A stretch of DNA of 64,000 bases from Ancylonema sp. (taxonomy: Eukaryota): assembly GCA_050230475.1 (NCBI GenBank), contig JBFLGF010000074.1, forward strand, positions 1 through 64,000, given 5' to 3'. Under the pieces are notes generated by a model, which searched no databases, was not told the DNA's origin, and saw only the letters and a list, made by a program, of their open reading frames with translations. Positions 13,490 to 36,676 of the stretch are shown here, piece by piece. The position numbers were made by a program, and so were the translations under genes. Numbering within the stretch: the stretch's first letter is position 1; the number at the start of each line of letters is the position of its first letter.

Positions 13490-13850
13490 CCTCAAACATG
13501 GTATCCCAAATATGGTCAGTCAGATATAGATATTGACAAACGCTACTGCTGGCAAGATTGACAAGCACAAGCCCAGGATGGAATGGGGTATAAGCAACTG
13601 GAGGGAATAGATAACGATGAAACAATCGCCCTCACGGTTCGTTTTGAGAGCATTCGGACATTGATTGTTAAGGGGGTAACTCAGAGGTGAAACTTCGACC
13701 GGATGGATGTTTCAACCACATTCCTAAAAGCAGATCTGGAGGAGGAGCCATTCGTGGAGATATCGGAGGGGGTGACACGTGTGGAAGGAGTGGTGTGGAA
13801 ACTCCTCAAATGTATGTACGGTTTGAAACAGTCCCCTCATGGGCATGATT
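13490..13850 (+). mobile_element. Decayed, internally deleted Ty1/Copia relic (RT fragment)
   Basis: aaaca-tggtatc (PBS-like) at about 13494-13505, then GYKQLEGID..TVRFESIR..MDVSTTFLKADLEEE..VWKLLKCMYGLKQSP. Confidence 0.8.
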
Positions 13851-14849
13851 GGTGGTTAAATGTGAATGTTGCCATTCGTGATTGTGAGGGGGATTGTAGT
13901 ATAAGGTAATCAATTATAGCCTTAGAACAAGATTCGCACTGGTGAATAGAATTTTTTATAATGAGATTTGTACTAGCTCCTTATAAAGCGAACGGAAACT
14001 CAAGTTTTAGTAATGTTTGATGTCTTTAAGTTTAATTGACCGTATGCATGCTAGGTTGACTATTGGAATAAGAAGCATCGTTTAAGTCATTCAAACGTAT
14101 AGAAATAAAGAAGTTATACAAATTTCTTATGCATAAAGTTGACAGTTTCAGCAACACATTGCACATTTTGTGCAATTTATAGTTAGCATTGCGTTTGTGA
14201 AACGGTCATTACAAATTATAGTGACGATGGAAGTATTAATTCCAAGCATTGTTCAAGAATGACTAATTCATTCATTGCACATGAGTTCAATGTTATGTAC
14301 TTTCGTGTTTGATTCCATGCGTGAAGTTCAATCGGCATGAGCAAGCAAATATGTATTCGGGGTTGACTCATTTGACATTAAGTTCATGAGTGCCACAACT
14401 CAGTATGGCTGATGGTGCAACATGGGATGCGGATATTTGCATTGCAGACCTCGACCAAGGCAGAGAGTTAGTCACAGGAGTTGGGATAGTAGAGGTGCCA
14501 ATGGGAGTCACCCGGCAGAAGGTGGAGTTCATCCTATCCCGTGGCACGCCTCGCGAACATCGAATGTGATACCAACGGGGTCTGCCATTAGGCCAGATCA
14601 CTCACAACTGGATTTCAGACTCTAAATCTAGTGCAATGCATAGCAGAATATACCATTCACAATTCCCATGTACTAAGACTCAAAATGGCATGGTAACGGT
14701 ATATCGACTACGCGAATTAATTTATTTGTGTCCAATTGTCTTTCCTATGTACTCTGAATCTCATGCAAATTCTCTGAATCTCACAACGAACGCGAACAAT
14801 TGTCTCGTGCACAAAGTGCCGAACCAAACCAATCTGTTTCACTAATTGT

Positions 14850-14995
14850 CACGCGCCCGTCCGAAACGGATGAATATTAACGCGCCCATACGAAACTAAA
14901 TGCGCCCTTGACTAAACCACGCACGCCTGCAGCGAAACTAAGCCGTAATGAAACTAAACACGCCCGTGTCGAAACAACGCGCGCCCTTAAGAACC
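14850..14995. repeat. Degenerate ~21-bp tandem array (cgcgccc....gaaactaaa), possibly a DNA-transposon subterminal repeat
   Basis: About six imperfect copies visible; the transposon origin is inference. Confidence 0.55.
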
Positions 14996-16261
14996 GTACA
15001 ATCAGATTCTAACAACTGACGCTCGCTCGCGCTCGCGCGTCTACTCACTAACAAATTAAACCAAACTTATTCAGATTACAATTATTCCGGTTACCCAAAG
15101 GTTATCCGGAGGTTATCCGAACAGAATGTCGCTGCTTGTAACCGTGGTGGGCACCACATCGTACTGCGCTTTGTTTGGAATGGAATTTATTGCCGCTGTA
15201 GGGGGGTGTTATGATACCTACACTGAGATGTTTAGGTGCAGGCGGGTAGGCCTAGACGGGCTCACTCAGAGTTTCGAAATCTCAGCTCCCTACCACCTCT
15301 CATATCCCCCTCTCATAGCATGCACTTTCTTTGGCGGCCTCATCAGCAACGAAGCGGAGTTGATGGATGTACAAGGCGCAGACAACGACAATGTTCAAAA
15401 AGAGGTGGGCCTGGGCTATCATTTATCCATCCAATTGTTGCGACTGACCCAAGCGTGTGAGCACGAAGAGATGGCCCAGTTGGCGAAGGAGGTGAGGGCT
15501 CGCGACTTGGCACGATGGGGAATTTCCGGGGCTAGGTTGGAATCAGCAACCCAACTTGCCCTTCCAACTTTGACACCTTCATCCGCATGGCTTGGTGCTG
15601 AAGTTTATGGTGCAACCCCTATCAACACTTCTATCTGTCAGATCAGTCCTCAGTCTTTGCGTAACGGTATTCACTTGTTATAGTTTTTTGTTCTAGGAGT
15701 GTTGCGAGCAGCCTTTGCAACGGAACACACCATCCGTTGCTACACCCACGTCCATCGAGATGGCATTAGCCGCCGTATGACATGAGAGGTGCTTCTTCGG
15801 TTGCAGTTGCAGTACCCTGATCCGTTGCAAGACGCTGCAATCCGATCGTTTGACAAACGACTTCCCCAAGCGGTATCATTCATGAGCACCTCTTCCTCAG
15901 TGACTTGGTGGTGCGACACGGACCAATGCATCTCCTAGGCGCTAGCTAGGAGTGCCAAAGCGTCAGCCGTGCCGGATGGCAACAAGGTGCCATAGACCCG
16001 CGCTTTCAATACTTATATGACATGGTGCGCATTGTCAACTACTTCTAGCGGGAGCAAACCTCCCCTCTAGTCTACATTCTAGAGAACACCTACCTCGGCG
16101 AGAAGTGCGCGCCAGCCATCATCAAGGCAAGAGAATTGGTTCAAGTATTCCTCGGAGCACCGATAATAGTGGATGCAGCGGACCTCGGCATAGCATTGCA
16201 TCGTATCCGACTGTTCTGGACCAACTTCATGGATCCAGCAACCCTGCGAGCATCCCTTCCT

Positions 16262-16594
16262 TGTTGAATGCTCTGCTCATTTTACGAGATGGGCAAAAGT
16301 CTATTCTTGTGTCAATTACAGCAAAGACATAGACGCGCAGAATCGATCACGGAGAATGATGAAGTGAGAGCGGCGGCGTACAGAGTGTAAGGATAGACTG
16401 CACTAGAAGTGCGGCTACGAGCACTAAGCTGTCGACCAAAGAGGAGACAGCTTTAGGCGAACGAAGTAAGTCAAATGTGACGCGCGTACAGATAGGGCCG
16501 GGCGGCTCATTTCTGACAGACAAGTACAGTCTAGACTGACGGAAAGTACCGTGTCCGTATCTGCGTGTCACAAGCTAGCATTACGTACTCAACA
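16262..16594 (-). repeat. Copia A 3' LTR
   Basis: Direct repeat of 21164-21498; by eye 8 substitutions and 2 indels. Confidence 0.97.
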
Positions 16595-19500
16595 ACACCC
16601 CCCTAATGCTAGAAAAAAAACTAAGAGTGTACAGAGACGGACACATAGGGAAGGTAAAACTAAGTAAAAACAACGAACTTAGCACCAACCTACCACGAAC
16701 TTAAACCAACTATTTCTTGTTAAAACGAACCACCCCCATGCAGCATGCTTTGTAAGCATATCGGCCCCCATCGGTCCTGAGGTGATTTTCTCGAACACCA
16801 CCTCCTTCTCCCCAGTACCCTGTCCCGGACGAAATGATCGCGCGCCAAGATTTGTTTAGTGCGGGCGTGGTAGACAGGGTTGTTGAGGATGTCCAATGCA
16901 GGTTGGCTGTCCACGCATATCCTCACTGCATAGGCTGCTGGGCTCCCCACCATCTGCTCCTGAAGCTGCCGGAGGAAGCTGGCCTCCGTGGTGGCAGCAC
17001 CGAACTGTAGGTACTCGCTCTCACACAAGCTGAGGCTTGCATTCGGGATGAGCTTGGACTGCCAACTGACAGCAGCTCCCGCGGACAGGAACTCATACCC
17101 CCCCCGGCAGCGACCAGTGTCCGGACAGGTGAGATAGCTGGCATCACAGTACCCCCACAGACGAGTGGACTCCCCCTTTCTGTAAATTAACCCCTCCCCA
17201 CTGGTGCCCTGCAGATAGCGAAGGACGTGCTGGACCCCCTCCCAGTGGGCCCTTCCAGGGTTCCCATTGAAGCGACTGGACGACTGAGGCTGCTCACAGC
17301 AGCTGCGCTGCGATATCATATCATATCCGGGCCGGGCGGGTGCAGACCGCCAGGTACATGAGTGACCCGATCGCACTCCGATAAGGTATGGGGCCCATTT
17401 CGTCTCGTCCACCTCCACCTGGGTTTTGGGCGAATCTGCACCACAGAGTTTGCTGCCGAGGGGAAGGGGGGTGCTAGCAGATCTGGAGCTGTCGACAGGG
17501 TAGCGAGCCAGCACCTCCCCGAGGTACTTCTCCTGCACCAGCTGCAAGTCCCCACCAGGTAATCGCCTGATCTCCATCCCCAGCAAAAACACTGCCTCCC
17601 CTAAATCTTTCATCTTGAACCGACTGTTCAAGAACCCCTTTACCCCTCTTATCTTCTCCATGCAGCGTCCGATGATGAACATGTCGTCTACGAAGAGTCC
17701 CAGCAGCGACCGGTCAGCTCCAGCGAGGACAGCGTAGACGCAGAAGTCTGCTGTACGTCGCACTAACCCGAATTCTGAGAGGGCTCGATCGACATGCAGG
17801 TTCCACATGCGGGAGGACTGCTTGAGTCCGTACAGGGCCTTCCACAGGCGAAGAACCTTCCCTGGCTGCTCCCCCTCGAACATCCCCTCCGGAACCTCAA
17901 GGTACACCTCCTCCTCGAGCTCCGCGTACAGGAAAGCGGTGGTTACTCCATCTGCTGCAGGTGCATCCCCTCGGCTGCAGCAGCAGCGATCATCAGCCTG
18001 ATGGACTCCATGCGCACAGTCGGTGCGTAAGTTTCCCCAAAGTCCACCCCCTCCTGTTGCAAGAAACCCCTCGCCACCACCCTAGCCTTGTATTTTTCAA
18101 CCTCCCCGGACAGACCCCTCTTCCTCTTAAAAACCCACTTGCTCGTGATGACAGGCTTTGTGGAGGGCTGCGGGACGACTGTGAAGACGTTGTTCTCCCG
18201 CAGCGACGCCACCTCTGCAGCGCAGGCACCCCCCCACAGGTTTGCGTCCGGCAGCCTCATTGCGTGCTTGAAAGTTTTGGGGTCTGCAGCGTCGAGCTCC
18301 ACGGCCAGCATGAGCATGTCCTTCATGCGAATGGGGGGAACGCCTCTGTTCTCCCGAAGACTGCGGCGCAGAACCCCCTCAGGTACGACCTCCTCCACAG
18401 CGTCCTCCTCCTCCCCTGCCACGTCGTCAGCAGCTGCGGCAGCGGGCTCCTCCACAGCCTCCACCTCCTCCCCTGGCAGGTCGTCAGCAGCTGCGCCAGT
18501 GATGGAAACGGGCGCAGGGGCAGACTGCACGTCACCATTACCGTTGTCAGGAGAGGTAGGGTCGATAACTTCTGACGCTGTCACAGCAGGGGCTGCAGGA
18601 GGGAGAGCAGAGGGAGGGAACGACAGCAGCTCTTCCTCCTCTGCGTCTGGCACTCTCCACCACCCAGGGCCCACCTCCTCATCGAAATGGGGCGCAGCGA
18701 CGTCGTACACCTTTTTCTTCTCCCAGTCGTAGACGCGGTAAGCCGGGCTGCTGCTGCTGTAGTTGACTAGAACCCCCTTGTACCCACGAGCTCCAAACTT
18801 GCCTTCCCGTGCTGCGTGTTGTTTGTGTAGGGGACAGAACGCCTTGCAGCCCAGCACTCGCAGCTTGGAGAGAAGATCTGGTCTGCGACCAGTCGTCCAC
18901 AGCTCGAACGACGGCGGGGTGGTGCTGGACAGGTGAGACACTGGGGACATGTTGCGTATCATGTTTGCAGCCTGCAGTATCTCTCCCCACAGGAACGACG
19001 GGAGAGCAGCCGCCAGCATGATGGTCCTCGTCTTCTCCTGGACTGTCCTGTTGAAGCGCTCTGCGATGGAGTTTGACTCAGGTGAGTAGGGTGGGGTCGT
19101 CTGGAGTGAAACACCCAGAACTGCCATCTGGTGCTTGAAGTCTGTTGACGTGAACTCCCCCCCGTTGTCTGAACGCAGGTTGAGCAGCCTCTGCTTGCAT
19201 TGAGTCTCCACCAGCGCCTTCCACTCGAAAATTTTTGCAGCTGCGTCGGACTTCCGCTTGATGACGTACACCCACGAGTGCCGCGTAAGACGTCCATCAG
19301 CCCCAGAAAGTAAGATGCCCCCCCTTAGACTGGCAGGTGTGACAGGGCCAGCTAAATCCCATGACCACAAGTTGTAAGGGATGAGATGTGCCATGGTCAA
19401 ATTGAACTGCCCGGGTGAGGGGGACGAAGTGATTTTGGCCAGCTGACAGGAGTCGCAGGGACCTGATCTTGCCTTGTACTTTACTGATGCCTGTGGCCAT

Positions 19501-21163
19501 GTCCTCACGCAGGAGTCGACGCAGCGCCGCTTCCCCACTGTGACCACGACGCCGATGGTGCAGGTCCATGGACAGCGTGGCCACCATCACCTCAGCCGGT
19601 CGAGCAGCTCGCGAGGTAGTCGGCACCGCTTCAGAGGTAGTCGTAGAATAGTCGTGTTGTGGTAGAGCAGCTCGCGAGGTAGGCAGCACCGCTCCAGATG
19701 TAGGCGTCGTGCAGTCGAGGGTGAGTCGGCCCTCTTTGGACCGAGTAAGGAGAGCCACTTGTTCCATGTTGCCGGTGGACGATGGCTTTTGGACGACAGC
19801 CTTGCCAGGGATGAGGTTGACTGTGTAGATCCAGTCGGCAGCAAGCAGTTTTTGCAGTGAAAAAATGTTGAACTGCATTGTCTCGATGAGTAAGAAGATT
19901 GAAAGTGTTAACTGCTGTTTCCCCCCGGCTGAATCCACATGAAGAATAACTGTCCCATGGAATTTGATGTCAATGAAACCCTCGACTTGTTTGATTCTGA
20001 ACTTTTTTGTCATGGGCTCAATGGTGCTGAACATATCCCTGCAATGGCAGATGTGATGGCTTGCTCCAGAATCGCACAGCCAAGTCGTAGATGTAGTGTG
20101 CATATGGCTGGCTGCCAAAATGCTGGCTGAGACATCGATGATCTCAGCCTCACTCGCCAAAGCATGTCCATCTCCACCACTTGTGAAGTCGACAGATGAT
20201 GTGATCTGGCCCCATGGAAAAATGATGCCTCCCCCTCCCCACACGCGTTTCTTTTTCTGGCACATCTTTTCAAGATGCCCAGTCCTCTGACAGAACTTGC
20301 ATCTGGTCCGGGCCAGTCGACAGTCCCTGGCATAGTGGCCTCTATCTCCACAGCAGTAACAGATGCTGCTGCTTGCACCTGGTCTGCCACCCGGTGGACG
20401 CACTGAATCTGCCTGTTTTTGTGCCCACAACACCTCCAACCTCTGAACTGCTGCAGCCTCCACAGCATCAGCAAAAGCTGCAGCTCCATGTGCAGGGGAA
20501 CTGTGCTTCTTCTTGTGCTGCAGATCCTCATCCCTCATGGACTCACACAACTGATCGATGTCTGGCTTGACTTGAGAGTATTGATCGTTGCTCTTAAGTG
20601 CTGAATATCTGTCATTTGGTTCAGAGAGAAGGGCACGCTCGATCTGTTGGGTTGACATAGCCACGTTCTGCTGTAGAGCACGCTCGACCACTGCCTCGAA
20701 CCGAGTGATCGTCTCATCCGCCGATTCAGTCTCATTGTGCTGAAAAGATAGGAAAGCCTTTTGAGCGGCCTCATGCTCCAACTCTGATCTACGAGCAAAC
20801 TTCTGCTGCAGTTTTCGCCACGTGGCAGCGGGGTCATCGATGATGCTGGTGACAGAGTACAGGATGGTGTCGGAGATCGATTCCTGTAAGAGACAGGCAG
20901 CCCTACACGTTGCATTTTCGAAGTCATCGATGGATTGGAGAGCCGCATTGACGAGGGCCTCGTTTCCATTTTCTGATGAGGTGGCCAGTCGAAGTACTGG
21001 CGGCGGTGGGGGACAGAGACGAGTTCCCTTAACGATGTCCCAGACTTTGTTGACCATAAAGACTATTTTCATGCGGCAAGACCAAGCCAAATAATTATCG
21101 GCCTTGAGTGCATAAGACGTTGCTTTAAACCGTGTTCCTTCTGATGGAACAGCTCTGATACCA

Positions 21164-21498
21164 TGTTGAATGCTCATTTTAAGAGATGGGCAAAAGTCTA
21201 TTCTTGTGTCAATTACAGCAAAGACATAGACGCGCAGAATCGATTACGGAGAATGATTAAGTGAGAGCGGCGGCGTACAGAGTGTAAGTCTAGACTGCAC
21301 TAGAAGTGCGGCTACGAGCACTAAGCTGTCGAGCAATGAGGAGACAGCTTTAGGCGAACGAAGTAAGTCCAATGTGACGCGCGGCATTTCTACAGATAGG
21401 GCCGGGCGGCTCATTTCTGACAGACAAGTACAGTCTAGACTGACGGAAAGTACCGTGTCCGTATCTGCGTGTCACAAGCTAGCATTACGTACTCAACA
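21164..21498 (-). repeat. Copia A 5' LTR
   Basis: Abuts the PBS (gctctgatacca on the + strand). Confidence 0.97.
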
Positions 21499-24400
21499 AT
21501 CCTAAACCTTTTCCTCCTTTCTCCCCCTCTAGACACAATCCTCAAGGCCTACCACATTCCCAAGAATCTAGGCCACACTAACCGCCACCCCTTTGCTCCT
21601 CACAACCAACTCGGGTGTGCATGCCTATCGTGGTGTCCTACCTCATGCGAATTCATTCCGGCCCAAAGAGAATGGAGAGCCAAGCGAAGGCGAACTATAA
21701 AGTGCTATTGCGGAGGCGTGGCAGGAGCCGGATGTTAAATCTATCTCTTGCGGATTTCTTTCGCACGAATACTGTTACACACCAGTGCCCATACACTGAA
21801 CATGCACACTTCAATAGAAATGAAGTATCGACTAACATGCATCCGGACTATCGTTTCGACCGGATTAATTATGCCGGAATCGGAACTTAGGCAAATAGAC
21901 AACCTCTTCCTACAATCCCCCTCTTTGTCATTTGACTAATCTAGCCACTTGTCATTCCCATCAACTTCGTCCCAATGTTTAGCACTTTCACCCCTACATG
22001 CTTGGTGAGCTGATCTGCTGCCATCGACAGAGTTCTCACAAACTCCAAACTGAACTCCCCATTTTCCACCTTTTCACGAATAAAGTGGAATCGTATATCG
22101 CACTGTGCTTGCTGCGCTTGTGGAACACCGGATTCTTCCAACTTGATCGACGACTGGTTGTCGACCAGCAGCAATGTCCCACTCTCCCCCGGATTAACCC
22201 CCATCTCCATCTGCAGCATCTTCAAATAAAGCCCCTCCTGCATTGCATGACAGATTGCCATGTATTCTGCCTCCGTGCTACTCAAAGCCACTACCTCCTG
22301 AAATTTTCTCCCCCAGCTAACAGCTGCACCACCACTCATGAAAACATAACCAGACCTCCCCTTCTTAGTTTCTTCCTCACTACCGTAGCTTGCATCACTG
22401 TATCCCCATATTTCAATTTCCTCTCCCGGGGTGTACCCAAGCCCTTCCCCAGCTGTCCCCTTGACATATCGCAACACTCGCTTTGCGGCCTCCCAATGCA
22501 TCATTTGTGGGTTCTGGCTGTATCGACTGAGCGCCGACATAGCCATCGACAAGTCAGGCCTAGTGCAAACCGCCAAATACATCAAACTCTCCACCAGACT
22601 GCGGTACGGAATGTCGACCATCCCGGGGTCCACCCCCTCTGCCACTGGAACCTCCTCTACCCCAAAACTACTTCCGGGTTCGAAAGGAGTCGAGACTGTC
22701 TTGGCAGCAGCCATGCCGTACCTGCTCACCACCTCAGCAGCATACTTTTCCTGCACCATGAAATACCCCCCATCCAGCCTCCTCCTGATTTCGACTCCGA
22801 GCAGAAAATGCGCACTCCCCATGTCCTTCATTTTGAAGTGTTCCTTGAGCCTCTCCTTCACCTCGGTCAGCGACTCCTTGCTGATCCACACGATGAGCAG
22901 GTCATCGACATAAAGCGCCAGAAATATCTTCTCTCCTCCCACCCCGACGACATAAATGCCATGCTCCGTAACAAGTCTCTCGAATCCCATGTCATCGAGG
23001 ACCCTGTCGATAGTCATATTCCACATGCGGGGGGACTGCTTCAAACCGTACATATGCTTTCGCAGCTTCCACACCCGGTTTCCCTCCCCAACCGGTACTA
23101 CCCCCTCTGGGATGTCGACAAAAGTTTCCTCCTCCAACTTCGCGTACAGAATCGCCGTTGCCACATCCATCTGATCCAGCTCCCACCCCATGGAAGCCGC
23201 TAGTGCTACCAGAGCCCGGACACTCTCGAAACGAGCTGTCGGGGCGAAGGTTTCGTCGTAGTCGACGCCCTCCATCTGTCGATAGCCTTTTGCCACAACT
23301 CTGGCCTTGTACTTGTCCAAGTTTCCGCTGGCATCTGTCTTGATGCGAAGTACCCACTTCGTACCAATCACCTTTTTGCCAGCTGGCCTCTCCACCTCCT
23401 CGAAGACTTCATTCTCCCACAAGCTTTGGAGTTCAGCTTCCATAGCTGAAGTCCACTCCTCCACCTTGCCACTCTCCATGGCAGCTGACACCGTCGGCGG
23501 GTTCATGAAGTCTGCGGCCACCTCAAAAATCTCATCGTACCGAGTCGCCGGCACTCCCCGTTACCCCTAGCACTGACTCGAACTCGAGGTGGGGGGCTGT
23601 CGACATCATCGACATCGTCATCATCGACATATGGCAGAAGTGGGGGTAGCTCATCATCACGATGCCACCGCACCGGGAGGGGGAGGGGGTGGGGGAGGGG
23701 GTGGGGGTCCACCCGAAGCGGCTGGGGATCCATCTCCATTCGCAGCCGCAACATCCCCCTGGTAGAGGCACTCCCATCCTCATCATCGGCTAGAAACACC
23801 ACCTGTTCCATCTCCTCCACATTCGCTCCACCCCTCCTCTCCAACCACCAACCCCTCTCCACCGATTCATCGTAGTCTGCCCCCCCTACATTCAGCACCC
23901 TTTTATCTTTCAAGGGGTTCCAAACTCGCACCGAGGGACTGTTTCGGAGTACCCCACCAACACCCCCTCATAACGCACAGCCCCAAGCTTTCCACCCCTG
24001 TCCTCCTGTCGATAGGACAGTACACCTTGCAGCCGAATGATTTCATATGCCACGTTTCTTGCCACCGAGGAGTAACTGACATGCCACTTACTGGTCCCCT
24101 ATTCCGCAAGTAGTTTGCTGCCAAGAACACCTCACCCCAGCAGCCCCCTCCAAGCCCAGCATGCATGAAACATCATCGACCTGGCCCTCTCTTGAAGGGT
24201 CCTATTCATCCTCTCTCTCTGCAACCCCGTCCGTTGCTCTCTCTGCGGTCGTGTCCGAGGTGGGGTAGTTTCATGCTTTACCTTTACCCCCTTTTCAGCT
24301 TCAACCATCCCGACAGGCTATTGCTGCAGAACTCTCTCCCCCACATTGTCTGTTCTGAACTTCACCATTGACTCCCCACACTCTCGTTCTCCACCAGTGA

Positions 24401-25187
24401 TTTCCCCACTCCTTATAAGCCTAGCCTCGAGACATCAGACTTCTGCTTCAGAACAGAAGGATCACCCATGACTTGCGAGAAAAATCATCGAACGAAAAGA
24501 TAACGAGCACCTCCCCAAGACTGCTGTCTCATAGGTCCCGCCAGGTCCGCATGCACCAACTCAAGTTTCTTTGTTGCACGGTACACGTCCTTTGAGGGGT
24601 GTGGCTTGGCAAGCGGCTTCCCCAGCTCACAGCCACGGCATACACCCATCTCCCCAATCACCCCACCTTCAAGTCCACGCACAAGCTCTTCCTTCCCAAG
24701 CCTGAACATTGCCGTCTTCCCCATGTGGCCCAACCTCCGATGCAACAGCTCCATGTCGACAGCTGCCACATGTGCCTCCTCTGCAACCTCCTCCGCGGGA
24801 AGCAACATTGAAGGGAGGGGAGGGATAGGTGGTAGAAGGGTCTTGCCGTTGACGAATGCCCTCCCCTCCGCATCTACTTCCAAGCTCCCCACATACTGGC
24901 CACTCTTGTTGGATCCAATCTTTGCACCTATCTTTTGCTTTTGCTCAACGAGGTAGTCAGCCATCCTCATCTTTTGCAGGCTGAAAAGGTTGACCTTGGC
25001 TAAGGGAATGAACAGAGTGTTGTGCAGATTCAGCACCACAGGAACCCCCTCCTTGCCTGGCACTCCAACTTCACCGTCCCGGTCACATGCACCTCCATCT
25101 CCCCCGACAGCTTGCCTAAGCAGAATTGGATCCTCATGCACCTTGACGTCCCACATTATTAGGCCCAAGTTGCTCACATGCCGAGAG

Positions 25188-28100
25188 TGTTAGGACCACT
25201 CCCTATAGACACTAGTGCTTCTCGAGTGAGTACTCCTATCCCGCACTTGTGTGCTTCTAGACTAGTGTCACATTGTGCTTCTATCGAGTGCTACTAGTTC
25301 TCCCATATAGAATATGTGTGTTTATGCCTTTCTTAGTATAAATACATGTTAGGAGCATCTTAGTCTTTGCTCCTAACAATTCATGTACTTACCTTACATA
25401 TCATAGTGCTTTTCCCCACACTGCACTTGTGTTAAGTATTTGCTCTTCTAAAGCTATGTCGCAATTCACGCGTTGCGCCGTAACACTTTGTTAGGAGATT
25501 TTTTTTTTTCGTGTTGCATTTTTTTTTTTCCGTGTTGCATTCTCTACACATGGACATTGTCTATCATCCGGGAGTTGCCGGAGACATATTTATCTAAACA
25601 AAGTTGTCCATCAGATCCATCATCCGGTCCCGGGAGTTGCCGGAGACGTACTTGTCTACACTTCCTACATTCATTTCTACGTACATCTTCATTCTCATCA
25701 TGGACAACCTTGAAGAACCCGAAATAGAATTGACGGACCGAGAACTCATAATCCAACTTCAAAATTCACAATCCCAATTAATAGATCAATTAAACCGGTT
25801 CGTTTCCCAACCACTTCCTCACGCCCCTCCTCCTCCGCCCCCCCCCCCTTCCCCACTAGTCAGTCCTCTTCCACCTAATCTCACCCTTCCTTCCCCTCCT
25901 TCTTTCTCCGGGCTGGCTAAAGACCTTCCTGAATTCAGAATGAAAATGACTCAATAATTTATCAATGGCAACCCTCATATCTACCTACACTACCCTCTCG
26001 CACACAACTTCTATACGCCTATATGCCGGCCACAGCCTTACTGGCCCGGCTGGCCAGTGGTACCGTGCCCATGTGGACCCCGCCACTCAACTCACTCAGG
26101 AGCTCCCTCCCTCCTATGACCTCGCCCGCCTCCTTCTTCGTCGCGTTGGAGGACTTCTTCGGGGGTGCGGTCACCCTTCAGTCCGTCCCGTGAGAGGGCC
26201 GCCCTGCGGCTCACTCAACAGGATCAGTTTCTGAACTTGGTCCCATTACCCACTACCTCCCCTCCCACCTACGCATTCATGGGGCTCACACAGAGGCACT
26301 CACCTTCCAGGTCACTAGACTGTGCCACTTCCATCTTGTGCTGGGGTTTCCCTGGCTGCAACGCCACAATCCCCGCATCGACTGGTCCAAAGGCGTGCTC
26401 ACGTTCGACTCCCCCCTCTGCACAACAACTTGCCTCCCCTCCCCCCCCTCCCCCTCCCCTCCCTCCCCTCCTTCTTCTGGCCCCCATTCCCCTTCTCTTC
26501 TTGTACCCCCCCCTTTCCTTAATGGCACTACCTCCCCTCCTGCTTCCAACCCCCCTCCCCCACCCCACCCCGACCTTTTCACACAGGTTCCGGCTGCTTA
26601 CCACGACTACCTCGACGTCTTCTCGGAGCAGCAGGCCAACATCCCGCCCCATCGGAAGTACGACCTGCAAATCCCCGCCAACACCAAGCCCTGGGGCCGC
26701 ATCTATAGCATGTCTACGGTGGAGCTGGTGGGGCCATGAAAGCTTACATTAAGGCTTACCTGGCCAACGGTTTCATCCGCCCGTCCCAGTCGCCTGCTGC
26801 CGCTACAGTTATGTTCGTCAAGCGCCCTGATGGCAAGCTGCGCCTCGTCGTGGACTACCCGGGCCTCAACGTTGTCACTGTGAAGAATCGCTTCCCCCTC
26901 CCCCTCATCCCCGAAATGCTGGATCGCCTGCAGCACGCAAAGGTGTTCACAAAAATAGACTTGAGTACCATCAGGTGCGGGTCAAGGAGGGCGATGAGTG
27001 GAAGACAGCATTCAGGTGCAGGGAGGGGCATTTTCGAATACCAGGTGTGCCCCCAGGGGCCGCCCCTGCCATGTTTCAGTTCTTCATGAATGACATGCTA
27101 CGTGACCTCCATGAATACGTGGACATCATCTGCGTGGGCATCCTCGACGATGTCATCGTCTTCTCTGCTACCCCAGCAGAGCACGTGAAGCACGTCCGCA
27201 CCACTCTCGAGGTCCTGCGAAAGCCAAACTCTACGCCAAGATCGAGAAGTGTGAGTTCCATAGGGAGGAGATGACGTTCGTGGGGTGGGGTTCCTGGTCT
27301 CTAAATCAGGCATAGGGACTCGCTAAGGTGGCGGCTATCATGGACTGGCCTACTCCCAAAAACCTAAAGGAGGTTCAGTCCTTCTTGGGGTTTGCTAATT
27401 TCTACAGAAAGTTCATCTTGCACTACAGCTCCCTGACATCCCCCCTCACCTCCCTCACTCGCAAAGGCGTCCGCTTTACCTGGTCCCCAGCAGCAGATGC
27501 AGCGTTCCGCCAGCTCCAGCTCGCCTTCACTTCTGCACCTGTTCTGTAGCAGCACTTTCAACCCGACCTTCCCATCACAGTGGAGGCAGATGCGTCAGAC
27601 TTTGCACTGGGATGCATCCTGTCCCAAACAAACCCCGATGGCCAGCTGCACCCTGTGTGCTACTACTCGCGGAAGTTCAGTCCTGCCGAGCTCAACTACC
27701 CTATCTACGATAAGGAGCTACTCGCGGTCGTCGAGGCGTTCAAACAGTGGGTCTACCTGGACCTGGAGGGAGTACCTGTCAAAGTCTACACGGACCATAA
27801 AAACCTCGAGTACTTCAGCACTGCTCGTACTACGTCGCGGAGGCATGCCCGGTGGGCGGCTACCCTCGCAGCCTACACTTACACCATCGTCTACCGCAAG
27901 GGCGCGGCAACGGCAAGTCCGCCGCGCTGTCCCGGAAGCAGACCACGTTCCCCCTCCCCTCCCCTCCCTCCCCATCCTTCCCCCCTTCCCTGTAGCACCC
28001 ATTCCATCCTCCAGACCTGATCGGCGCTGCCGTCATGGTATCCCCTTCCGATCCGCTCCTCCCCGAGATCGCTGCTGCCCAGGCGGCCGATCCTGCACTG

Positions 28101-29981
28101 GCTACCAAATTCACACACTCCTAGGGGGGCCTGGCGGGGAGTCAAACCCCGCACTGCCAGGAGGCAGCCCACACTTCGTCATGCAGGCGGATCAGTTGGG
28201 GGTATCCTATACCACCAGGGGCGCGGGGCGCATTCTAATTCCCCCTGCAGCAGGCAGCTGCCCTCATTCTCAACATCCTACGCCAATACCATGACTCCCC
28301 CCCCCCCTGGCTGGGCACTACGGTGTGGCGCGGGCGGACGCACAAGCAAGCCTTGGTGGGGCAGTACTTCAAGTGGCAGGGGCTGGCGAGAGCTGTCGAG
28401 GCCTACGTGCGCAGCTGTGATGCGTGCCAGAGAAACAAGCTGGTGCGGCACGCACCCTACGGGCTCCTGAACCCCTTCCTATCCCCGATAAACCTTGGAG
28501 CAGCGTGTCCCTGGACTGGATAACGGACCTGCCACCGAGTCAATATCACGACGCATCGTGGTCGTGGATCGCACCAAACAGGCACATTCCTACCACATCC
28601 ATGCCGGCGCCAGATGTCGCGGCGCTATTCATCCAACATGTGGTCAGGCTTCATGGTGTCCCATCAACCCTCGTGAGCGATCGGGACCCCATCTTCACAT
28701 CGCACTTTTGGGGAAGACTCCTGGAGCTTCTGGGGATCCATGCCAACCGGTCGTCCGCTTTCCATCCCCAGACGGATGGCCAAACGGAGCGGCTGAATTC
28801 CGTACTGGAGCAGTACCTTCGCATGTATTGCGAGTACCAGCAGACCGACTGGGCCAGCCTCTTGCCCATGGCCGAGTTTTCCTACAACAACTCTAAACAC
28901 TCGGCTACAACGATGACCCCGTTCTACGCAAACTACGGGTTCCATCCCCAAATGTCCCTGCTCCCTCCATCCCCCGATCCAACAACCCCAGCCGCGGATT
29001 CGTACGTGCAGCAGCTCCGCGAGGCGCAAGTCACACTTCAACGGGAGCTCCTAAAAGCTAGAAAAGCGATGGAGCTCTCTGCGAATCGGCGTCGCCGGCC
29101 GGCACCGGATTTTGTCCCAGGGCAAAAAGTGTGGCTTCTCCGCCGACACATCTCCACCACGCGTCCTTCATCCAAGTTGGATGTTCGTCGACTTGGGCCA
29201 TTCGTCCTTCTTGGCCCTATTGGGAAATATGCCTACCAGTTGCTGTTGCCGCCGTCCATGCACATCCATCCCGTATTCCATGTCAGCTTGCTCGAGCCAC
29301 ACGTGGCCAACACGTTCCCGGGCCGCGTCGTGGACGTGCCCTTCTAGGTGGATGGGCTTCCTGAGTTCCTGAGTTTGAGGTTAATTCTGTCCTTGATTCC
29401 AAATTTCGGCGCCGCAAGTTATTCTACATCGTCGATTGGGTAGGGTACGATGCATCGGAGCGCACCTAGGAGCCTTTTTCCAACCTGTCTCACGCCACGT
29501 TAGCAGTTCAGTCCTTTCATAACCATTTTCCTTTGAAACCACGTCCGCCATAGCCAACTTTTGTCCCAGATAGTCTTTTCGTAAAATTTTGTCCTTATTT
29601 TCCTAGTTTTTTCTTTCTCCTTTCGTCCCGTAGTCTCCTCTCCTCATTTTAGGGGGGGTACTGTTAGGCTCCCTATAAGACACTAGTGCTTCTCTAGTGA
29701 GTACCTATCCCGCACTTGTGTGCTTCTAGTCTAGTGTCACATTTGCTTCTATCGAGTGCTACTAGTTCTCCCCATTTAGTATATGTGTGTTTATGCCTTT
29801 CTTAGTATAAATACATGTTAGGAGCATCTTAGTCTTTGCTCCTAACAATTCATGTACTTACCTTACCTTACATATAGTAGTGCTTCTTTTCCCCACATTC
29901 CCCTCGTGCACGTGTGTTAAGTAAGTATGTATTTGCTCTTCTAAAGCTATGTCGCAATTCACGACGCGTTGCGCCGTAACA
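25188..29981 (+). mobile_element. Ty3/Gypsy chromovirus (Tcn1/Tf1-like), internally deleted in gag-protease
   Basis: LTRs 25188-25485 and 29662-29981; perfect TSD GAGAG; PPT agggggggtac at 29651-29661. Gag start, LGFPWLQRHNP, RT (ILDD), RNase H (EADASDFALG), integrase (SDRD, QTDGQTE, GPF) and a chromodomain (FEVNSVLDSK..YIVDWVGY..RT*EP) at about 29374-29552. Confidence 0.96.
25488..25497 (+). promoter_or_regulatory. Putative self-priming PBS of the chromovirus
   Basis: ttgttaggag is the exact reverse complement of ctcctaacaa at 25370-25379, which lies 33 nt after TATAAATA (25337). There is no TGG-starting tRNA PBS. Confidence 0.75.
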
Positions 29982-32900
29982 GAGAGGCCCCAGAGTCCCC
30001 CAGCCACTCCACATTATCTGATGCGTCATGAACAGAAGCATTGGACACCACCTCCTCTATCACCAGCCCCTCCGCACCATCCTTGGCTTTCTCCATCTTT
30101 GTACCTTTCGCGAAACTCAGCATTTTGGGTTTGATGGCCGGGCCTGGTGGCTTTGCAGCCCCTCCACTCCCACTCCCACCACTACCACCGGCTGAAGATC
30201 CTCCTTTGTTTCGGCACATGTTTGCGAGATGCCCTTTTGTCTGGCATAAATTACACGTCTTTCCCATCATCGGACACTCCCTGGCGAAGTGTCCTGTCCT
30301 CCCACAACAGTAGCACTTTGATTCAGCCCCACGTGGCTGTCTTTGAGTGGATGCCACCGTTGGCTTCCAACCTGAACCGCTTCCCCCTCCACTTCCGCTA
30401 CCGCCGCCACTTCCACCTCCACTAAATCTCCCCATGTAGTTTGCTTTCTCCACCTCTCTATCATCATGTTCCATCGTTCCTCTCACGCTTTCATAGAGCT
30501 GAAGATCTCAGCAACAGGTGGGAGAGGTGACTGAATGGCGTAGGCGTCCATAAAAGTTCTCCACCTTTCCGCCGGATGTGTCATGAGAACCATCGTACTA
30601 ACCGCGTCGGTAACCAACACCGCTTGTATGATGCACTCATTCAGTAACTCATCGAACCGGAGTTGAGTCTGAACTACTGTATCACCCTCTCTCATCCTGA
30701 CTGAAGCTCATAAAGCGAGCTCTTTCTTGCAGTGGCAGCCTGTCTGTGATGCTGAGACTGCCGCATAATCCATCCGCGACCAACTTGTTCCACTTCTGGG
30801 CCGGAGATAGCATCATGAGAGTTGCCATCACATCGCGAGGCTCCAAAGTCTGAAGAAGAAGGGAATTTGCACGCGCGATTGCCGCGTCAAAGTCCTCAAA
30901 GCGCTTCGTATCATGATCAACCATGCCTTGAGTTACTTCCGTGACACCGGCCACGGCATCTACTCCAGGTGCCGCAGCCCGCGCGGCTACGGCAACGATC
31001 ACAGTCCGCGGTAAGGGAGGCCTGATGGCGGTGCCCATGACATGGCCCCACAATTTCCTCTCCTTCAAGGACTGTTCCATAACAGTCGCCCACACTCTGT
31101 AATTTGTCTCCTTTAGGATTATTCGCGGTCTACTAGTCCCGGAATCATCTCCCGCGCTCTGATACCATATGTTAAATCCATCTCTTGCGGATTTCTTTCG
31201 GCACGAATACTAATTTCACACCAGGTGCCCATACACTGAACATGCACACAGTAGACCAATAGAAATGAAGTATCGACTAACATGCATCCGGACTATCGTT
31301 TCGACCGGATTAATTATGCCGGAATAGGAACTTAGGCAAATAGACAACCTATTCTTACACCGGACGAGGAGGAGAAGGGGCAAATGCTTGGATTTCAATG
31401 TGGTGACAAAGCCACTCCAATTGTAATGGAGGACTAGCGCGTTGTGCGACTTGGTCGTGTTCTAGACGGCAAAAGTATGTGCTGGTTGAGTGCTTTTTTG
31501 CATGCCAGTTAGGCATAGGGACCACACCTCACCTAGACTGATGAAGTGCACCTCTCATCAGGGGGGGAGGGCACACTACACCCGGCGTAAGCCCAAATTC
31601 AATACGGCCCGCAGCTGTAAGAGATGGTGGTTGTAGACGACGCATTGTTTGCTGCTGCCAAGCAACGTGCCGCAGCTCAAGAGGTCATCTCAGCACTACT
31701 CGCAGCGGACGCTGCACCAAAGCCATCTAGCGTCCTCGGAGCTGAGGGCGAGGGGGGGAGTGGTCCCCCTCAGCGTGTCAAAGGGGGGGGTCCATAATTC
31801 AACTTGTGTGCCAGCCTACTAGAGTAAGACCAACTTAGGGTGCTGGCAATGCTGGACCAAATTTTTGACCGCTTTGCATTTTCCCTTACAGATATGGAGC
31901 CATTGGTGGCGAGCCGATAAGGATCGACCTCAACTTAGACAAGCAGATTTTCCATCCGCCGCACAAGCTAGGACAAGTGGGGTGAGACTTCGTGGAGGCC
32001 GAATGCAAGAATCAAGAGGGGATCGGCTTCAACAAGCGCTCCACCTAGTCTATGTATGTATCAGCCACGGTGGTGGTGCGCAAGAAGTTAACTAAGGAAA
32101 TTACACCGACTTTTGTCACTGTGGAGATTACAAGCCCCTCAACTTGGAGGCTATGCTGGACCGCTACCCCTTGCCTTGCATCGAGGACATCTTTAATTTG
32201 CTGGGGGGGGGCAAGATCTTCAACAAGCTAGACTTGCGGAGTGGGTACCATCAAATGCCGCTCTGGCTAGAAGATCGGTGCAAGACATAATTATGGGGAT
32301 CCAATCGAATCTTGTGGGAATGGCTGGTGGTGCCCTTCGGACTCAAGAACACGCTACCCTACTTTTAGCAGAGGATGGACCAAGTGCTGCGGAATCTACC
32401 ATTCTGCCGGTACTACATCGATGACATCATCATCCGGTCCAGTTGTATGTAGGAGCATCTAAAGCACTTAGAGGAGGTCTTCAAGCGTCTACGAGAAGCA
32501 GGCGTGAAGGTGCATCTAGGGAAGTGCTTGTTTGTTGCTGACAACATAGACTTTTTGGGGCACCGCATCTCAACAAACTCCTTGAAGCCGCGACAAGACA
32601 AGTAGGCAGCAGGCAGAGACCTCTCCTCCACTACAGACCTTTCAGCTTGCATGCCGCTCTGGGCCTCTTCTCCTACTATCAAAAGTTTGTTCAACACTTC
32701 ACCTCTATCGCCTTCTCCCTTAACAAGCTGCCGAAGAAGGGCTTCCCATAGGAGTGGGGTGACAAGCAAGAGGCTACCTACCTAGAGCTAAAGGAGGAGC
32801 CGTGCACCGCAACGGTGCTCAAGTTGCGAGACCCCTACAAGCCATTCATCTTGACTATTTATTGGAGCCAAAAGGGGATGGGTGCGGTGGTAAACCGACT

Positions 32901-34755
32901 AGACTCGGAGGGAGTGAAGCACCCTGTTTGCTACGCCTCCCGATCATGCAATGCTGTAGAGCAAAACTATAGCTCCTTCAATGGGTAGTGCGAGGCGGTG
33001 GTGTGGGCTACCAACCATTTTCGTTCAAACTTGTTTGGAAATTCCTTGACGTTGGGTACTGACCACGAGCCCTTGAAGTGGGTTATGACCACTCAAAAGC
33101 TAACGAGGAAGTTGGTGCGGTGGAGCTTGCTGTTGCAAGAGTACGACTTCACTGTGGTGTACTAGGCGGGGACAAATAACGTTAATGCAGATTGTTTGAG
33201 CCGCTACCCCCTCCATTCAAGAGATGGAGCTCCAGTCCTCGATTGGACCAAAGGAGGGATAAGGGCCCCCTCAACCTCTTTTGCCATGATGGCAGGTGCA
33301 ATTGACCCTTTGCATGCCATAGAGGAAGACAAAGAGATTGGGGACGATGTGGAGGTGTTGCGGCTGCTGCAGATGCACAAATACAAGACGCGAAACCGCA
33401 TCTACAGACGTGCCCGCACCTTCTGCTAGATGGGGGACAACTTGTTCAAGCTACTGCTTCGGGGAGTCTTGATGGTGGTACGAAGGCCTGCTTAGAGGAT
33501 GCAAATCGCCCTCGACACGCATCGGGGCATGGGCCACTTCAATGTTCAGCGCGTCCTCGACCGGCTCCAAAAGAACTATTGGTGGAGGGGCATGAGTGAC
33601 ACAGTGATAACAGTCGTCAAGGCCTTCTTGCATTATGCCCCGGTGAAGGCTGAAGGTGTGTGGTGAAGTAATGTTTCGCATGTGTGTGGTACATCAAACG
33701 ATGATCTTCGTTAGAACGATAGTGTGACACGTGTGAGTATGGCACGATGTTAGATAACACGACGTCTATACACATGATCCCTCTCGACCATACCTCAATT
33801 TTAATTGATTCCTGCACGCCTTCTTTTGAAATTTTTGTACTGCCAACTCTGAAATTTTACCACACTAGCAAGTCAGAGATAGTCATGCAAGGCTCGCTAC
33901 ATACTGTCAACGCACTACGCATCAACTATAAAACCCCCATCTCGCCACATGTATGTCACGAATCAAAGATGTGAAGTCATTGAAGTTGCAACTGTGAGCC
34001 TTAGCTCTGGCGCTGAATTGGAGTGTTGGGATCAAGAAGAAAACAGAATGCTAATGGCGAAGATCCGAACAACACTCTCCTTTTTCGATAGTCGTGGTTC
34101 CTACACGACCCGATATTTTGGAGGGCCGTACAAATATGAATAATATCCAAGAGACGTGTAATACGTATAAAAAGACTTGATAACAATTGAGCAATAACCT
34201 AGTTGCAATATCGAATCAACCTAGCAATGCAGTTCTATCTTGCATGCTCTAGATTGTTATATGTAGATGATGTCAATTTGAGTAATTATCTAATCGACAA
34301 TGACCTTAGCTGCGGTGTAACACCTGGACACGCCACCAACTGTAGTTGCGTCAAATGCTCTAAAACGGCCTTACACATTAACAAGAACATGAATTGCTTC
34401 ATGTTCTATAGCCACATACAACTTGGCCTTGGCAAGCAAATACGATATAAGGTCCCTCCGTAACGCCATTATTCACACTCGCAAGAGTATCAATCTACAC
34501 ACATGAGACCTGATCTAGCCTAACAATTTTCAAAACACGTGTGAATGCATGGACGGGTGGATACAACAGGAAATAACCAAATTTATGCGAATTGTGGCTG
34601 AGATTCTTCAACACTAGTTCGGAAGAAAGAAAAAGAAGAAGAAAAGATGTACATCGAAAATATCAATAACTCCAGGTTGGCAGTCGACTCGTGTGACATA
34701 GGTCCAAAACCAGGACCCCCAAATCTCCATTTGTTGTGCTCAATCATGGCTTGTA

Positions 34756-36676
34756 TCAGTCATCTGGCACTTTTTGCTTCCTTGCTCGTTTATGCTCAGA
34801 GGTGCTGAGATTGTTGCCTTCTGGTGTGCGAAAGGGTGCCTGTGAACATTGCAACTATAAAAAAGTGAGCTCCCCAAGCCAAAACTGCTACCCCCAACTT
34901 CTTCTTCTGTTCATCTTACCTTTCTTTTCACTGATCTCTCGGGCCCCAAGATGTGACCGTCATCGGTTCGACGATTCTGCCCCCCACACACATGCCTCTT
35001 AGTTCCCCCTCCCATCCCTCCCATCCCTCCCATCCCTCCCATCCCACCTTTGATACTGTGGAGAGGGTGGAAGAAGGGTCCACCAAATTACTCACTTCGT
35101 TTTCCTTCCACGTAACCTGCGTCAGCCCCCCCCCCCCGGTACAAGGATCAACACCTGGCTGCCACCGTTGCCCCGCTGGTTGGAGAGGGGTGGGGCCCAC
35201 CCGCGCCTCTATTCCTGCCAGGTTCAGAATGTCTTTCTGGAGAGCCATGAACTCGGAGACCACGGCTCGCGTGGGCATGCGCGGTCTGGGGGGGATGTTG
35301 AGGTCCTGCCAGAGTCGCTCCACTATCTTGCCGTGCTTTCCCAGCTGCCCAGCTGCCTGCGTCACGCGCTGCAGCACCCGCAGCCCCCGCAACCCCACCA
35401 GGCTGCCTGCAAACTCACTCGGGGGCGGGCGAGCAGGCGGAGGAGGAGCCGCAGCAGCCCTGGCTTCCCGAATATGGTTGGCCTGGTCGAGCGTCTGCAG
35501 CAGTGGGTGAGATGTGAGGGGGGGCAGAGTGGTGGTAGTGCGGTTTGGTAGCCTGGACCTCACCTCCTGGTCCTCAACCGCCTGTTTGCGGGAGTAGGTC
35601 CAGAGCCTCCCCAACAGGCGCTTCCGCTCGATTTCGTTCACCACGCGGTACGGGTCGCGCAGAATGGGATGCTCCATCTCCTCCTCTGACCGCGTCCCTC
35701 TCTCCAGCAACAGACGACGTGCCACCTGGTAGTAGCGGTCCTTCACCTCCTCCACATTGCGCTCACCCCAGTGGCCACCATCGGCGAAGCGGTCAGCGAT
35801 GACCACAAACCGCTGATCGAACCGTGTGCACAAATCCAACAGATGGTCCGTCTCCTCCAGGCTCCACTTCTGCACCATGCCCCCCCACAACACTTCAAGA
35901 GGTGCCCCAGTCGCAGGCTGTGGAAGCCACCTCACCCCCTCACCCCCTCACCCCCTCACCCCCTCACCCCCTCACCCCCTTACCCCCTTACCGGATGCAG
36001 CAGGTGGCGCTGGTACTCGTCCTCAGTGTACCGCACCACCTGCTGCGATTTGTTGTACTTGGCAAAGGCATAGTCGGGCGGGGGGTCGCTGCCCTCCACG
36101 CAGCGCACCTGCAGCCTTCAGACCTCTCCCCTTAGACACACAAATTCGCCAAGGCCGGGGTGGAAGGGAGAACCCACCCAGTGCTGCAGCTGTAAGCCGT
36201 CAGGCCGCGCCGAGTTCGAAAAAGGCTGCCATCGCCACCTTACCTGCCAATCCTTTTTTCTATATTTACAACTGACGAATGCACTTGGGCTGACGACAGC
36301 CTTCAAACGATACAGTTACGCTCCTTGCGAAAATAATTCCATTCACAATAAACCACAGCCGGGCAATTCATTCCATACATGCAGAAAGTGAGCAAATCAC
36401 CCGCTGCTGTGCTTCTCTTCTCTTATTGGCTGTGCTGATGGTTGCAACGAGCGGCGGCACACCCCCCGTGAGAGCATACACCTGCACGACCATTGTAAAT
36501 AAATAAACACCGCAAGGCCCCAGGACTGCAGAAAATGCCTCGAGTACCTCACGATTGACATTTGCTTGTTTGCGAAGGCTCGTCTCTTTGCAAACCCTGG
36601 ATTTTTTATCTCCACCTCCCGATTTCCCCAACTCGTCCGATTTGAAAATTTTCCGCAAAACCTCGAAGGACGCCAT
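34756..36676 (-). CDS. SWC4: SWR1-complex protein 4 / DMAP1 (SANT domain), multi-exon
   Basis: Spliced motifs NVNRE|VYALTGG, WRWQPFSNSARPDGLQLQHW, DYAFAKYNK...YTEDEY, WSLEETDHLLDLCTRFDQRFVVIADRF, VEEVKDRYY, PRMPTRAV. The 3' exon boundaries are approximate. Confidence 0.93.

What the first reader, a model, noticed from the sequence alone, without database searches (positions are those of the whole stretch)
15666..31518. A Gypsy retrotransposon carrying its own DNMT3-like cytosine methyltransferase, hidden by stops and two nested insertions
Seen: removing Copia A (16262-21498) and Copia B (21733-31359) joins three pieces that translate to C5-MTase motifs I, IV, VI, VIII, IX and X in canonical order. 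They lie between a Gypsy protease tail and RT/RNase H/integrase on the same strand. HRIRLFWTN and RVVRLGR resemble DNMT3 (HRARYFWGN, RQKLLGR). Motif IV reads (W)ECQ rather than the usual PCQ/PCN, keeping the Cys, and motif VI is ENT rather than ENV. The ORF track does not show the domain. Known: retrotransposon-borne DNMTs were reported in dinoflagellates and in the charophyte Klebsormidium (de Mendoza et al. 2018), so the class is not new. Inference: this may be a separate family or host, in which the element methylated its own cDNA or insertion site.
Basis: partly seen in the sequence, partly recalled or inferred. Interest (0 to 1): 0.9.

Follow-up and report, generated by a model that had tools for sequence, protein, structure and literature searches.

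The report
Retrotransposon with Gag-linked DNA methyltransferase
This is a dead, repeatedly interrupted copy of a jumping gene whose intact relatives carry a DNMT3-like DNA-methylating enzyme at the end of their capsid-protease protein instead of fused to reverse transcriptase, so they likely pack many copies of the enzyme into their particles and would methylate their own new DNA copies.

Summary
A C5-methyltransferase domain (PF00145, above cut-off) lies in three pieces between a Gypsy protease and RT/RNase H/integrase. There are four insertions, not two: a solo LTR, two Copia elements and a Gypsy nested in the second Copia. This copy is dead: it has 23 premature stops, 7 frameshifts, a destroyed SAM-binding motif I, and both ends are missing. 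Open-frame relatives exist at 55-72% identity. A model of one matches DNMT3A at Z 27. DNMT and RT trees agree, so this is element cargo, not a host-gene remnant. WECQ/ENT are family traits. The class is known (KnitGypsy-Dnmt3), and relatives occur in Closterium, Mesostigma, Scenedesmus and Haematococcus. What differs from the published element is the layout. In the window's subfamily, 8 of 8 relatives that reach motif X stop at the same codon as the window, where DNMT3's own domain ends. ORF1 is therefore Gag-protease-DNMT, and RT-RNase H-integrase-PHD is a second ORF, in the same frame in the window. The enzyme would likely be made at Gag level and loaded into particles. Catalytic activity, target and the route of Pol expression are untested. 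New variant of a known kind; interest 0.52.

The parts
14432..14566 (+). Middle of the aspartic protease of the DNMT element; 5' break of the fragment (catalytic motif and gag missing)
   Evidence: tblastn/blastx to P0183 642-682 and P0191 420-455, 50-64% identity
14567..15123 (.).
   Evidence: Perfect 5-bp target-site duplication; a diverged sister contig joins 14567 to 15135 in 4 of 4 runs laid
15124..15659 (+). End of the protease and protease-DNMT linker
   Evidence: Aligns to P0183 691 onward and P0191 462 onward at about 50%
15660..16261 (+). DNMT3-like domain, motifs I-VIII; 4 stops, 1 frameshift near 15888, 9-nt deletion in motif I
   Evidence: PF00145 E=2.8e-5; 60-72% identity to open-frame relatives; stops listed
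16262..21498 (-). Copia A, full length, LTR divergence K2P 0.025
   Evidence: gag, integrase and RVT_2 hits; LTRs and target-site duplication
21499..21732 (+). DNMT target-recognition region; 1 stop, 3 frame changes
   Evidence: Aligns to P0187 685-760
21733..31359 (-). Copia B, LTR divergence K2P 0.045
   Evidence: RVT_2, gag_pre-integrs and copia gag hits; perfect target-site duplication
25188..29981 (+).
   Evidence: RVT_1 and SH3_Tf2-1; LTRs and 5-bp duplication
31360..31518 (+). DNMT motifs IX-X; 2 premature stops, then the family-conserved ORF1 stop at 31516-31518
   Evidence: 54-64% identity to relatives; 8 of 8 close relatives that reach motif X end at this position
31519..31623 (+). 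105-nt spacer between ORF1 stop and conserved pol Met, same reading frame
   Evidence: Frame positions; in-frame similarity to the P0204 N-terminus p=0.001, to P0213 p=0.14; hairpin not significant, z=-0.88
31624..33651 (+). ORF2 remnant: pre-RT linker, RT, RNase H, integrase zinc finger; 3 frameshifts; 3' break before the integrase core and PHD
   Evidence: RVT_1, RT_RNaseH and Integrase_H2C2; 47-73% identity to P0200, P0201, P0204 and P0207

Best explanation
The window holds a dead fragment of a Ty3/Gypsy family whose intact relatives encode Gag-protease-DNMT3-like enzyme as one ORF and RT-RNase H-integrase-PHD as a second, so the enzyme is likely made at Gag level, likely packed into the particle, and would methylate the element's own new cDNA. 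Shown: the domain order, the shared stop, the fold and catalytic residues in relatives, the decay of this copy and the four later insertions. Inferred: (a) ORF1 is the major product, so the DNMT outnumbers RT and integrase; (b) the protease releases the DNMT, whose C-terminus needs no cleavage because the stop falls where DNMT3's own domain ends; (c) it methylates cDNA cytosines before or at integration, probably CG as the DIRS-borne DNMT3s do, so the new copy arrives pre-marked; (d) the PHD finger on integrase reads chromatin at the target. How Pol is expressed is open. My odds are initiation at the conserved AUG about 0.4, readthrough of the in-frame UAG about 0.35, and Ogre-like splicing about 0.25.
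For: Seven ORF1 relatives carry protease + DNMT, five of them with a gag zinc knuckle. 8 of 8 core-clade proteins that reach motif X end at the window's stop, representing about six independent lineages. Seven complete pol relatives with a comparable N-terminus (P0200, P0201, P0203-P0207) run RT-RNase H-integrase-PHD with no DNMT. P0187 (ORF1) and the P0204 cluster (ORF2) list the same longest contig, 7714 bp, which is suggestive only. The model of P0187 aligns residues 474-810 of 811 to DNMT3A 630-908, Z 27.4, rmsd 2.7 over 275. A family profile ranks DNMT3A (5e-20) above DRM-type (2e-13), M.HhaI (4e-12) and DNMT2 (3e-5). Among 189 relatives: catalytic Cys 161/165, motif VI Glu 170/173, motif VIII Arg 161/167 and 153/166. 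DNMT identity among ORF1 relatives is 71%, against protease 61% and gag 47%, consistent with selection on the enzyme. In both DNMT and RT trees the window sits in the split group, sister to the fused P0211/P0212. A Met lies 22 residues before a conserved block in 8 of 9 pol-only proteins and 0 of 2 fused ones. SymbioDIRS-Dnmt3 methylates CG de novo in yeast (PMC5890265).
Against: No DNA of an intact relative was obtained, so ORF1-ORF2 adjacency and frame are seen only in this decayed copy, and no LTRs were seen for the family. Protein ends and starts come from gene callers; 5 of the 8 conserved Mets are caller-chosen starts. KnitGypsy-Dnmt3 gave no methylation in yeast, which the authors call inconclusive. 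Glu in place of Pro before the catalytic Cys has no tested effect. No significant hairpin follows the stop. Stop-ended proteins also occur beside the fused P0211/P0212, so whether split or fused came first is unresolved.
Confidence: 0.58

Rival explanations
1. Same element and layout, but the DNMT acts outside the particle: on integrated copies or host chromatin, damping the element's own activity or altering host methylation.
For: A Gag-level product is abundant, and a free DNMT3-like C-terminus allows action in trans. de Mendoza et al. raise self-limitation and effects on the host methylome. The element pieces are mildly CpG-poor (o/e 0.61-0.77), like the nested elements.
Against: Fusion to Gag and protease points to packaging (established LTR-element biology). 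The CpG depletion is no stronger than in elements lacking a DNMT (0.63-0.76), so it says nothing specific.
Confidence: 0.2
2. The domain is kept as a non-catalytic or weak DNA-binding module, for example shielding cDNA or competing with host DNMTs.
For: Non-canonical WECQ motif IV in 110 of 167 relatives; no activity of the Klebsormidium enzyme in yeast; earlier scan notes report dead DNMT folds in other Gypsy elements (unchecked).
Against: All catalytic residues tested are kept in 92-98% of relatives, and the first two motif I positions in 83-97%. Both WECQ and WPCQ occur within the same architecture groups.
Confidence: 0.14
3. The shared stop is not a regulated signal: the Gag-protease-DNMT proteins come from non-autonomous or inactivated copies, and active elements are the fused type.
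For: Fused single-ORF relatives exist (P0211, P0212, P0219, Closterium P0081/P0082/P0165); no intact DNA was seen.
Against: The stop is at one position across lineages only 52-65% identical. Their pol partners are open for about 1,050 aa with RT 86% conserved.
Confidence: 0.06
4. Chance juxtaposition of a host DNMT3 remnant and an unrelated Gypsy pol.
For: None found; the DNMT piece is low-copy in the source runs.
Against: No introns; protease directly upstream; single-ORF relatives join all domains; DNMT and RT trees agree.
Confidence: 0.02

Closest known systems
KnitGypsy-Dnmt3 of Klebsormidium nitens (de Mendoza et al. 2018, PMC5890265; abstract, passages, section 3 parts 3-5 and peer-review passages read; figures and main supplement not available)
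   Same: Gypsy LTR element, intronless DNMT3-like domain with canonical motif order, streptophyte clade (inferred for the window), conserved catalytic residues.
   Different: There the DNMT shares an ORF with RT and RNase H, and the authors' cis-methylation argument rests on that. Here it ends a Gag-protease ORF at a conserved stop. Its domain order, motif IV and DIRS-like repeat structure could not be compared.
SymbioDIRS-Dnmt3 of Symbiodinium (same paper)
   Same: DNMT3-like cargo in a retroelement; the only such enzymes shown to be active (de novo CG).
   Different: DIRS/tyrosine-recombinase class, dinoflagellate host, DNMT in Pol.
EpiLTRs of Cymbomonas and Euglena (bioRxiv 10.64898/2026.05.21.726589; passages read)
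   Same: LTR elements with a C5 DNMT and a chromatin-reader domain.
   Different: DNMT4-related, at the 3' end of pol, with Dam and a chromodomain; stated to be distinct from Gypsy-DNMT3.
Ogre/Bianca two-ORF elements (PMC6317226, passages) and Tj1/Tosmo in-frame-stop elements (bioRxiv 2022.12.06.519325, passages)
   Same: Gag(-protease) ORF separated from RT-RH-IN to set product ratios; Ogre splices the spacer, Tj1 reads through.
   Different: No DNMT. In Tj1 the stop precedes the protease. Ogre's spacer averages 274 bp against 105 nt here.

Membership tests
C5 cytosine methyltransferase (PF00145) | Profile hit above the curated cut-off | tested here: met
   24.1 bits against 22 on window 15872-16261
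C5 cytosine methyltransferase (PF00145) | Catalytic Cys (IV), Glu (VI), Arg-x-Arg (VIII) and SAM-binding motif I in intact relatives | tested here: met
   161/165, 170/173, 161/167 and 153/166; motif I Phe 129/155, Gly 152/156
C5 cytosine methyltransferase (PF00145) | Intact, translatable enzyme in this copy | tested here: not met
   7 stops, 4 frame changes, motif I deletion and two insertions within the domain
C5 cytosine methyltransferase (PF00145) | Pro before the catalytic Cys | tested here: not met
   Glu in the window and in 110/167 relatives, Pro in 43/167
C5 cytosine methyltransferase (PF00145) | Methyl transfer to cytosine | not testable with these tools
   Needs an assay
DNMT3 family | Closest solved relatives by profile and fold are DNMT3; motifs not permuted as in DRM | tested here: met
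   DNMT3A Z 27.4, M.HhaI Z 23.2; collinear end to end
DNMT3 family | Nested among host DNMT3 genes in a tree | not tested
Ty3/Gypsy | Order protease-RT-RNase H-integrase with RVT_1 | tested here: met
Ty3/Gypsy | Flanking LTRs, PBS/PPT, target-site duplication | tested here: inconclusive
   Fragment cut at both ends; no intact DNA obtained
KnitGypsy-Dnmt3 (strict) | DNMT in the same ORF as RT and RNase H | tested here: not met
   Conserved stop after motif X in the window and in 8 of 8 close relatives; met by sister proteins P0211/P0212
KnitGypsy-Dnmt3 (strict) | Groups with Klebsormidium DNMT/RT sequences | not tested
   No protein named Klebsormidium among the 21 looked up or the named hits; most hits are unnamed
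KnitGypsy-Dnmt3 (strict) | Purifying selection on the DNMT | tested here: inconclusive
   Protein identity DNMT 71% > protease 61% > gag 47%; no DNA for Ka/Ks

The most novel reading that the evidence does not exclude
A Gypsy lineage that makes an active DNMT3-like enzyme with a non-canonical WECQ active site as part of its Gag-protease protein. It uses a stop at the enzyme's natural end to load each particle with methyltransferase in large excess over RT, so the cDNA is methylated before integration. It is one branch of a DNMT3-Gypsy radiation spanning chlorophytes and streptophytes, with at least two positions of the domain.
Probability: 0.35. Interest if true: 0.75.

Novelty: new variant of a known kind. 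Interest (0 to 1): 0.52.

Why it matters
Why transposons carry the enzyme class that silences them has been open since 2018, when the one Gypsy-borne enzyme tested was inactive in yeast. This family supplies many natural open-frame enzymes to assay. It also offers a natural comparison of split and fused sister elements. A Gag-linked DNMT makes a sharp prediction, that the enzyme is abundant in particles and cDNA is methylated before integration, which differs from the published model of one DNMT tethered to each RT. The hits also extend Gypsy-DNMT3 from Klebsormidium to Closterium, Mesostigma, Scenedesmus and Haematococcus, so DNMT counts in green-algal genomes may include many element-borne copies. 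The window's own copy is only a fossil.

Tried and rejected
No whole genome is held, so no search for intact copies in the host. Scans of JGI metagenome and viral contigs with the close-family alignment found no relative (0 of 207 and 0 of 76 pattern matches). An RT-based scan gave 79 generic Gypsy loci, none with a DNMT. No RNA holder listed. A readthrough hairpin after the stop is not significant (z=-0.88). In-frame similarity of the spacer held for P0204 but not P0213, and frame +2 gave p=0.03 against P0204. CpG depletion does not separate the DNMT element from its neighbours. Only 11 of 19 classifiable stops face Trp/Gln/Arg, so no clear deamination signature. No Rfam match. 'Split is derived from fused' looked clean but weakened when short stop-ended proteins were added. 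P0131 was mislabelled protease-DNMT by my rule and belongs to the other architecture. The host was not identified, and the Atlas did not hold the host protein. The Atlas match for a relative, a mostly streptophyte PF00145 cluster at 0.95, tied with a viral cluster, so it does not place the family. Gao et al. 2003 and Steinbauerova et al. 2008 were not held. Paper searches that found no description of a Gag-protease-DNMT ORF or of Gypsy-DNMT3 outside Klebsormidium/'streptophytes'; subscription journals, FigShare files and the main supplement of PMC5890265 were not visible and may bear on novelty, domain order and motif IV.
Full report
Observation. Self-comparison and target-site analysis confirm Copia A at 16262-21498 and Copia B at 21733-31359. 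The piece before Copia A, read with X at stops, hits PF00145 above its cut-off (E=2.8e-5), and the piece after Copia B hits RVT_1, RNase H and the integrase zinc finger. Open-frame relatives align collinearly over all junctions. Two more insertions exist: a solo LTR at 14567-15123 in the protease, and a Gypsy at 25188-29981 inside Copia B. Contigs from three runs reproduce the broken DNMT and pol pieces with 0-3 other letters and cross two insertion junctions. A contig about 86% alike joins across the solo LTR in 4 of 4 runs, so a sister copy without that insertion exists. Contigs on the DNMT piece have depth 10-13 in X1 against about 4,400 on Copia A; depth is not copy number, but the piece is clearly low-copy.

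State of this copy. It is a fossil. One search lists 21 stops within aligned segments and adds two more besides the family stop, giving 23 premature stops, 7 of them in the DNMT. There are 7 frame changes: six seen as frame switches and one at the Copia A junction, inferred from frame arithmetic. Motif I has a stop and a 9-nt deletion of its glycines. The fragment runs from about 14430, after the protease catalytic motif, to about 33651, in the integrase. Its end branch is 0.29 in the RT tree against 0.05-0.10 for relatives, while the inserted elements have LTR divergences of only 0.025-0.045. It therefore likely died well before they landed.

The family. A search of 1.84 billion representatives with relative P0002 gave 819 clusters at E<=0.001; I examined the best 150 plus later hits. 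Of 189 DNMT-bearing proteins, which include some near-duplicate cluster members, 80 place the domain between RNase H and integrase (named examples Scenedesmus and Haematococcus), 25 place it after the protease or before RT (Closterium, Mesostigma; one of the 25 mislabelled), and 84 are too short to call. In a tree of 69 rows (44 of 79 RNase H-type rows kept), the protease-type domains form one side of a well-supported branch (SH-aLRT 99). Catalytic residues are kept at 92-98%, and WECQ is the commonest motif IV. A profile ranks DNMT3A first. An AlphaFold model of P0187 (mean pLDDT 76.6, 87-98 per ten-residue block over the DNMT) matches DNMT3A at Z 27.4 end to end. The window's DNMT and RT fall in matching positions in their trees, next to the single-ORF proteins P0211/P0212. 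That excludes a host-gene remnant.

What differs from the published element. The closest relatives come as two proteins: Gag-zinc knuckle-protease-DNMT, about 1,200 aa when complete, and RT-RNase H-integrase-PHD, about 1,050 aa. All 8 core-clade proteins that reach motif X end at the codon where the window has TAG 31516-31518; a ninth ORF1 relative, P0195, ends before motif IX and was not counted. Three of the 8 form one sub-clade, so about six lineages at 52-65% identity share the stop. It falls where DNMT3A's domain ends (model 810 of 811 against DNMT3A 908). In the window, pol continues in the same frame, with an ATG 105 nt later. That Met is shared by 8 of 9 pol-only proteins and by neither fused protein, though 5 of the 8 are gene-caller starts. 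[quoted passage not shown] Whether split or fused is older is unresolved, because short stop-ended proteins (P0008, P0087, P0035), which may be contig ends, lie beside the fused pair.

Mechanism. From established LTR-element biology, the ORF before such a stop is the abundant structural product; in-frame stops set the Gag:Pol ratio in Tj1-type elements, and Ogre splices a spacer between Gag-protease and RT. I infer that the DNMT is made at Gag level, enters the particle with Gag, is released by the protease and methylates the cDNA, most likely at CG by analogy with SymbioDIRS-Dnmt3. PHD fingers are known on algal Gypsy elements and are proposed to guide insertion. Pol expression could start at the conserved AUG (LINE-1 ORF2 reinitiation is an analogy I recall, not from a call), read through the UAG (the spacer resembles P0204 in frame, p=0.001, but not P0213, p=0.14, and there is no significant hairpin), or use splicing. 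None of this was tested on DNA of an intact copy or on RNA.

Host. Not determined. The stretch is held by 'organism A' and by glacier metagenomes of two further studies. The DNMT clade's named members are streptophyte algae, and flanking genes are eukaryotic (LRR, NSRP1, DAMP1 SANT). A glacier streptophyte alga or a moss is my inference.

Novelty. The class is published (PMC5890265) and cited as streptophyte Gypsy-DNMT3 in 2025-2026 (passages). Earlier notes of this scan report protease-DNMT-RT elements in mosses (unchecked). I found no description of the split Gag-protease-DNMT layout, or of the chlorophyte RNase H-DNMT-integrase form, in the searches, or in scan notes. Figure 4c and the main supplement of the 2018 paper could not be seen and may show domain order and motif IV. 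Verdict: real, a new variant of a known kind, interest 0.52.

Noticed in passing
LTR pairs 16262-16595/21164-21498, 21733-21914/31170-31359, 25188-25485/29662-29981: LTR differences are mostly transversions (transitions:transversions 1:7, 4:4, 1:7), unusual for a methylated plant-type genome; small numbers, and assembly error is not excluded.
   Followed up: no
P0120 cluster (18 members, unnamed ENA contigs): A third arrangement, RT-RNase H-DNMT-PHD-integrase with a PPCQ motif and an RT far from both main groups; possibly an independent DNMT capture.
   Followed up: partly
P0053/P0164 (Scenedesmus), P0192/P0193 (Haematococcus): Named chlorophyte Gypsy polyproteins with a DNMT3-like domain between RNase H and integrase plus PHD; the papers read place Gypsy-DNMT3 only in streptophytes.
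   Followed up: partly
window 52293-52541 and 52644-52892: Perfect 249-bp direct repeat inside a 244-aa open frame with no useful Pfam hit; a recent duplication or an assembly artefact.
   Followed up: no
window 14567-15123: The solo LTR belongs to a very high-depth family and is CpG-rich (o/e 1.54), unlike all neighbouring elements.
   Followed up: no
window 13502-13900: Decayed Copia RT fragment (RVT_2, E=1.5e-15) just upstream of the DNMT element's 5' break.
   Followed up: no
window 9926-12390 (+), 34931-35947 (-), 48886-49518 (-), 60248-61410 (+): Host gene pieces: LRR protein, DAMP1-type SANT, a His-rich membrane protein without a Pfam hit, and NSRP1.
   Followed up: no
window 42000-44100; 7875-8076 and 58659-58860: Simple-sequence and tandem duplications (87-91% alike) and an 80% alike inverted dispersed repeat.
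   Followed up: no
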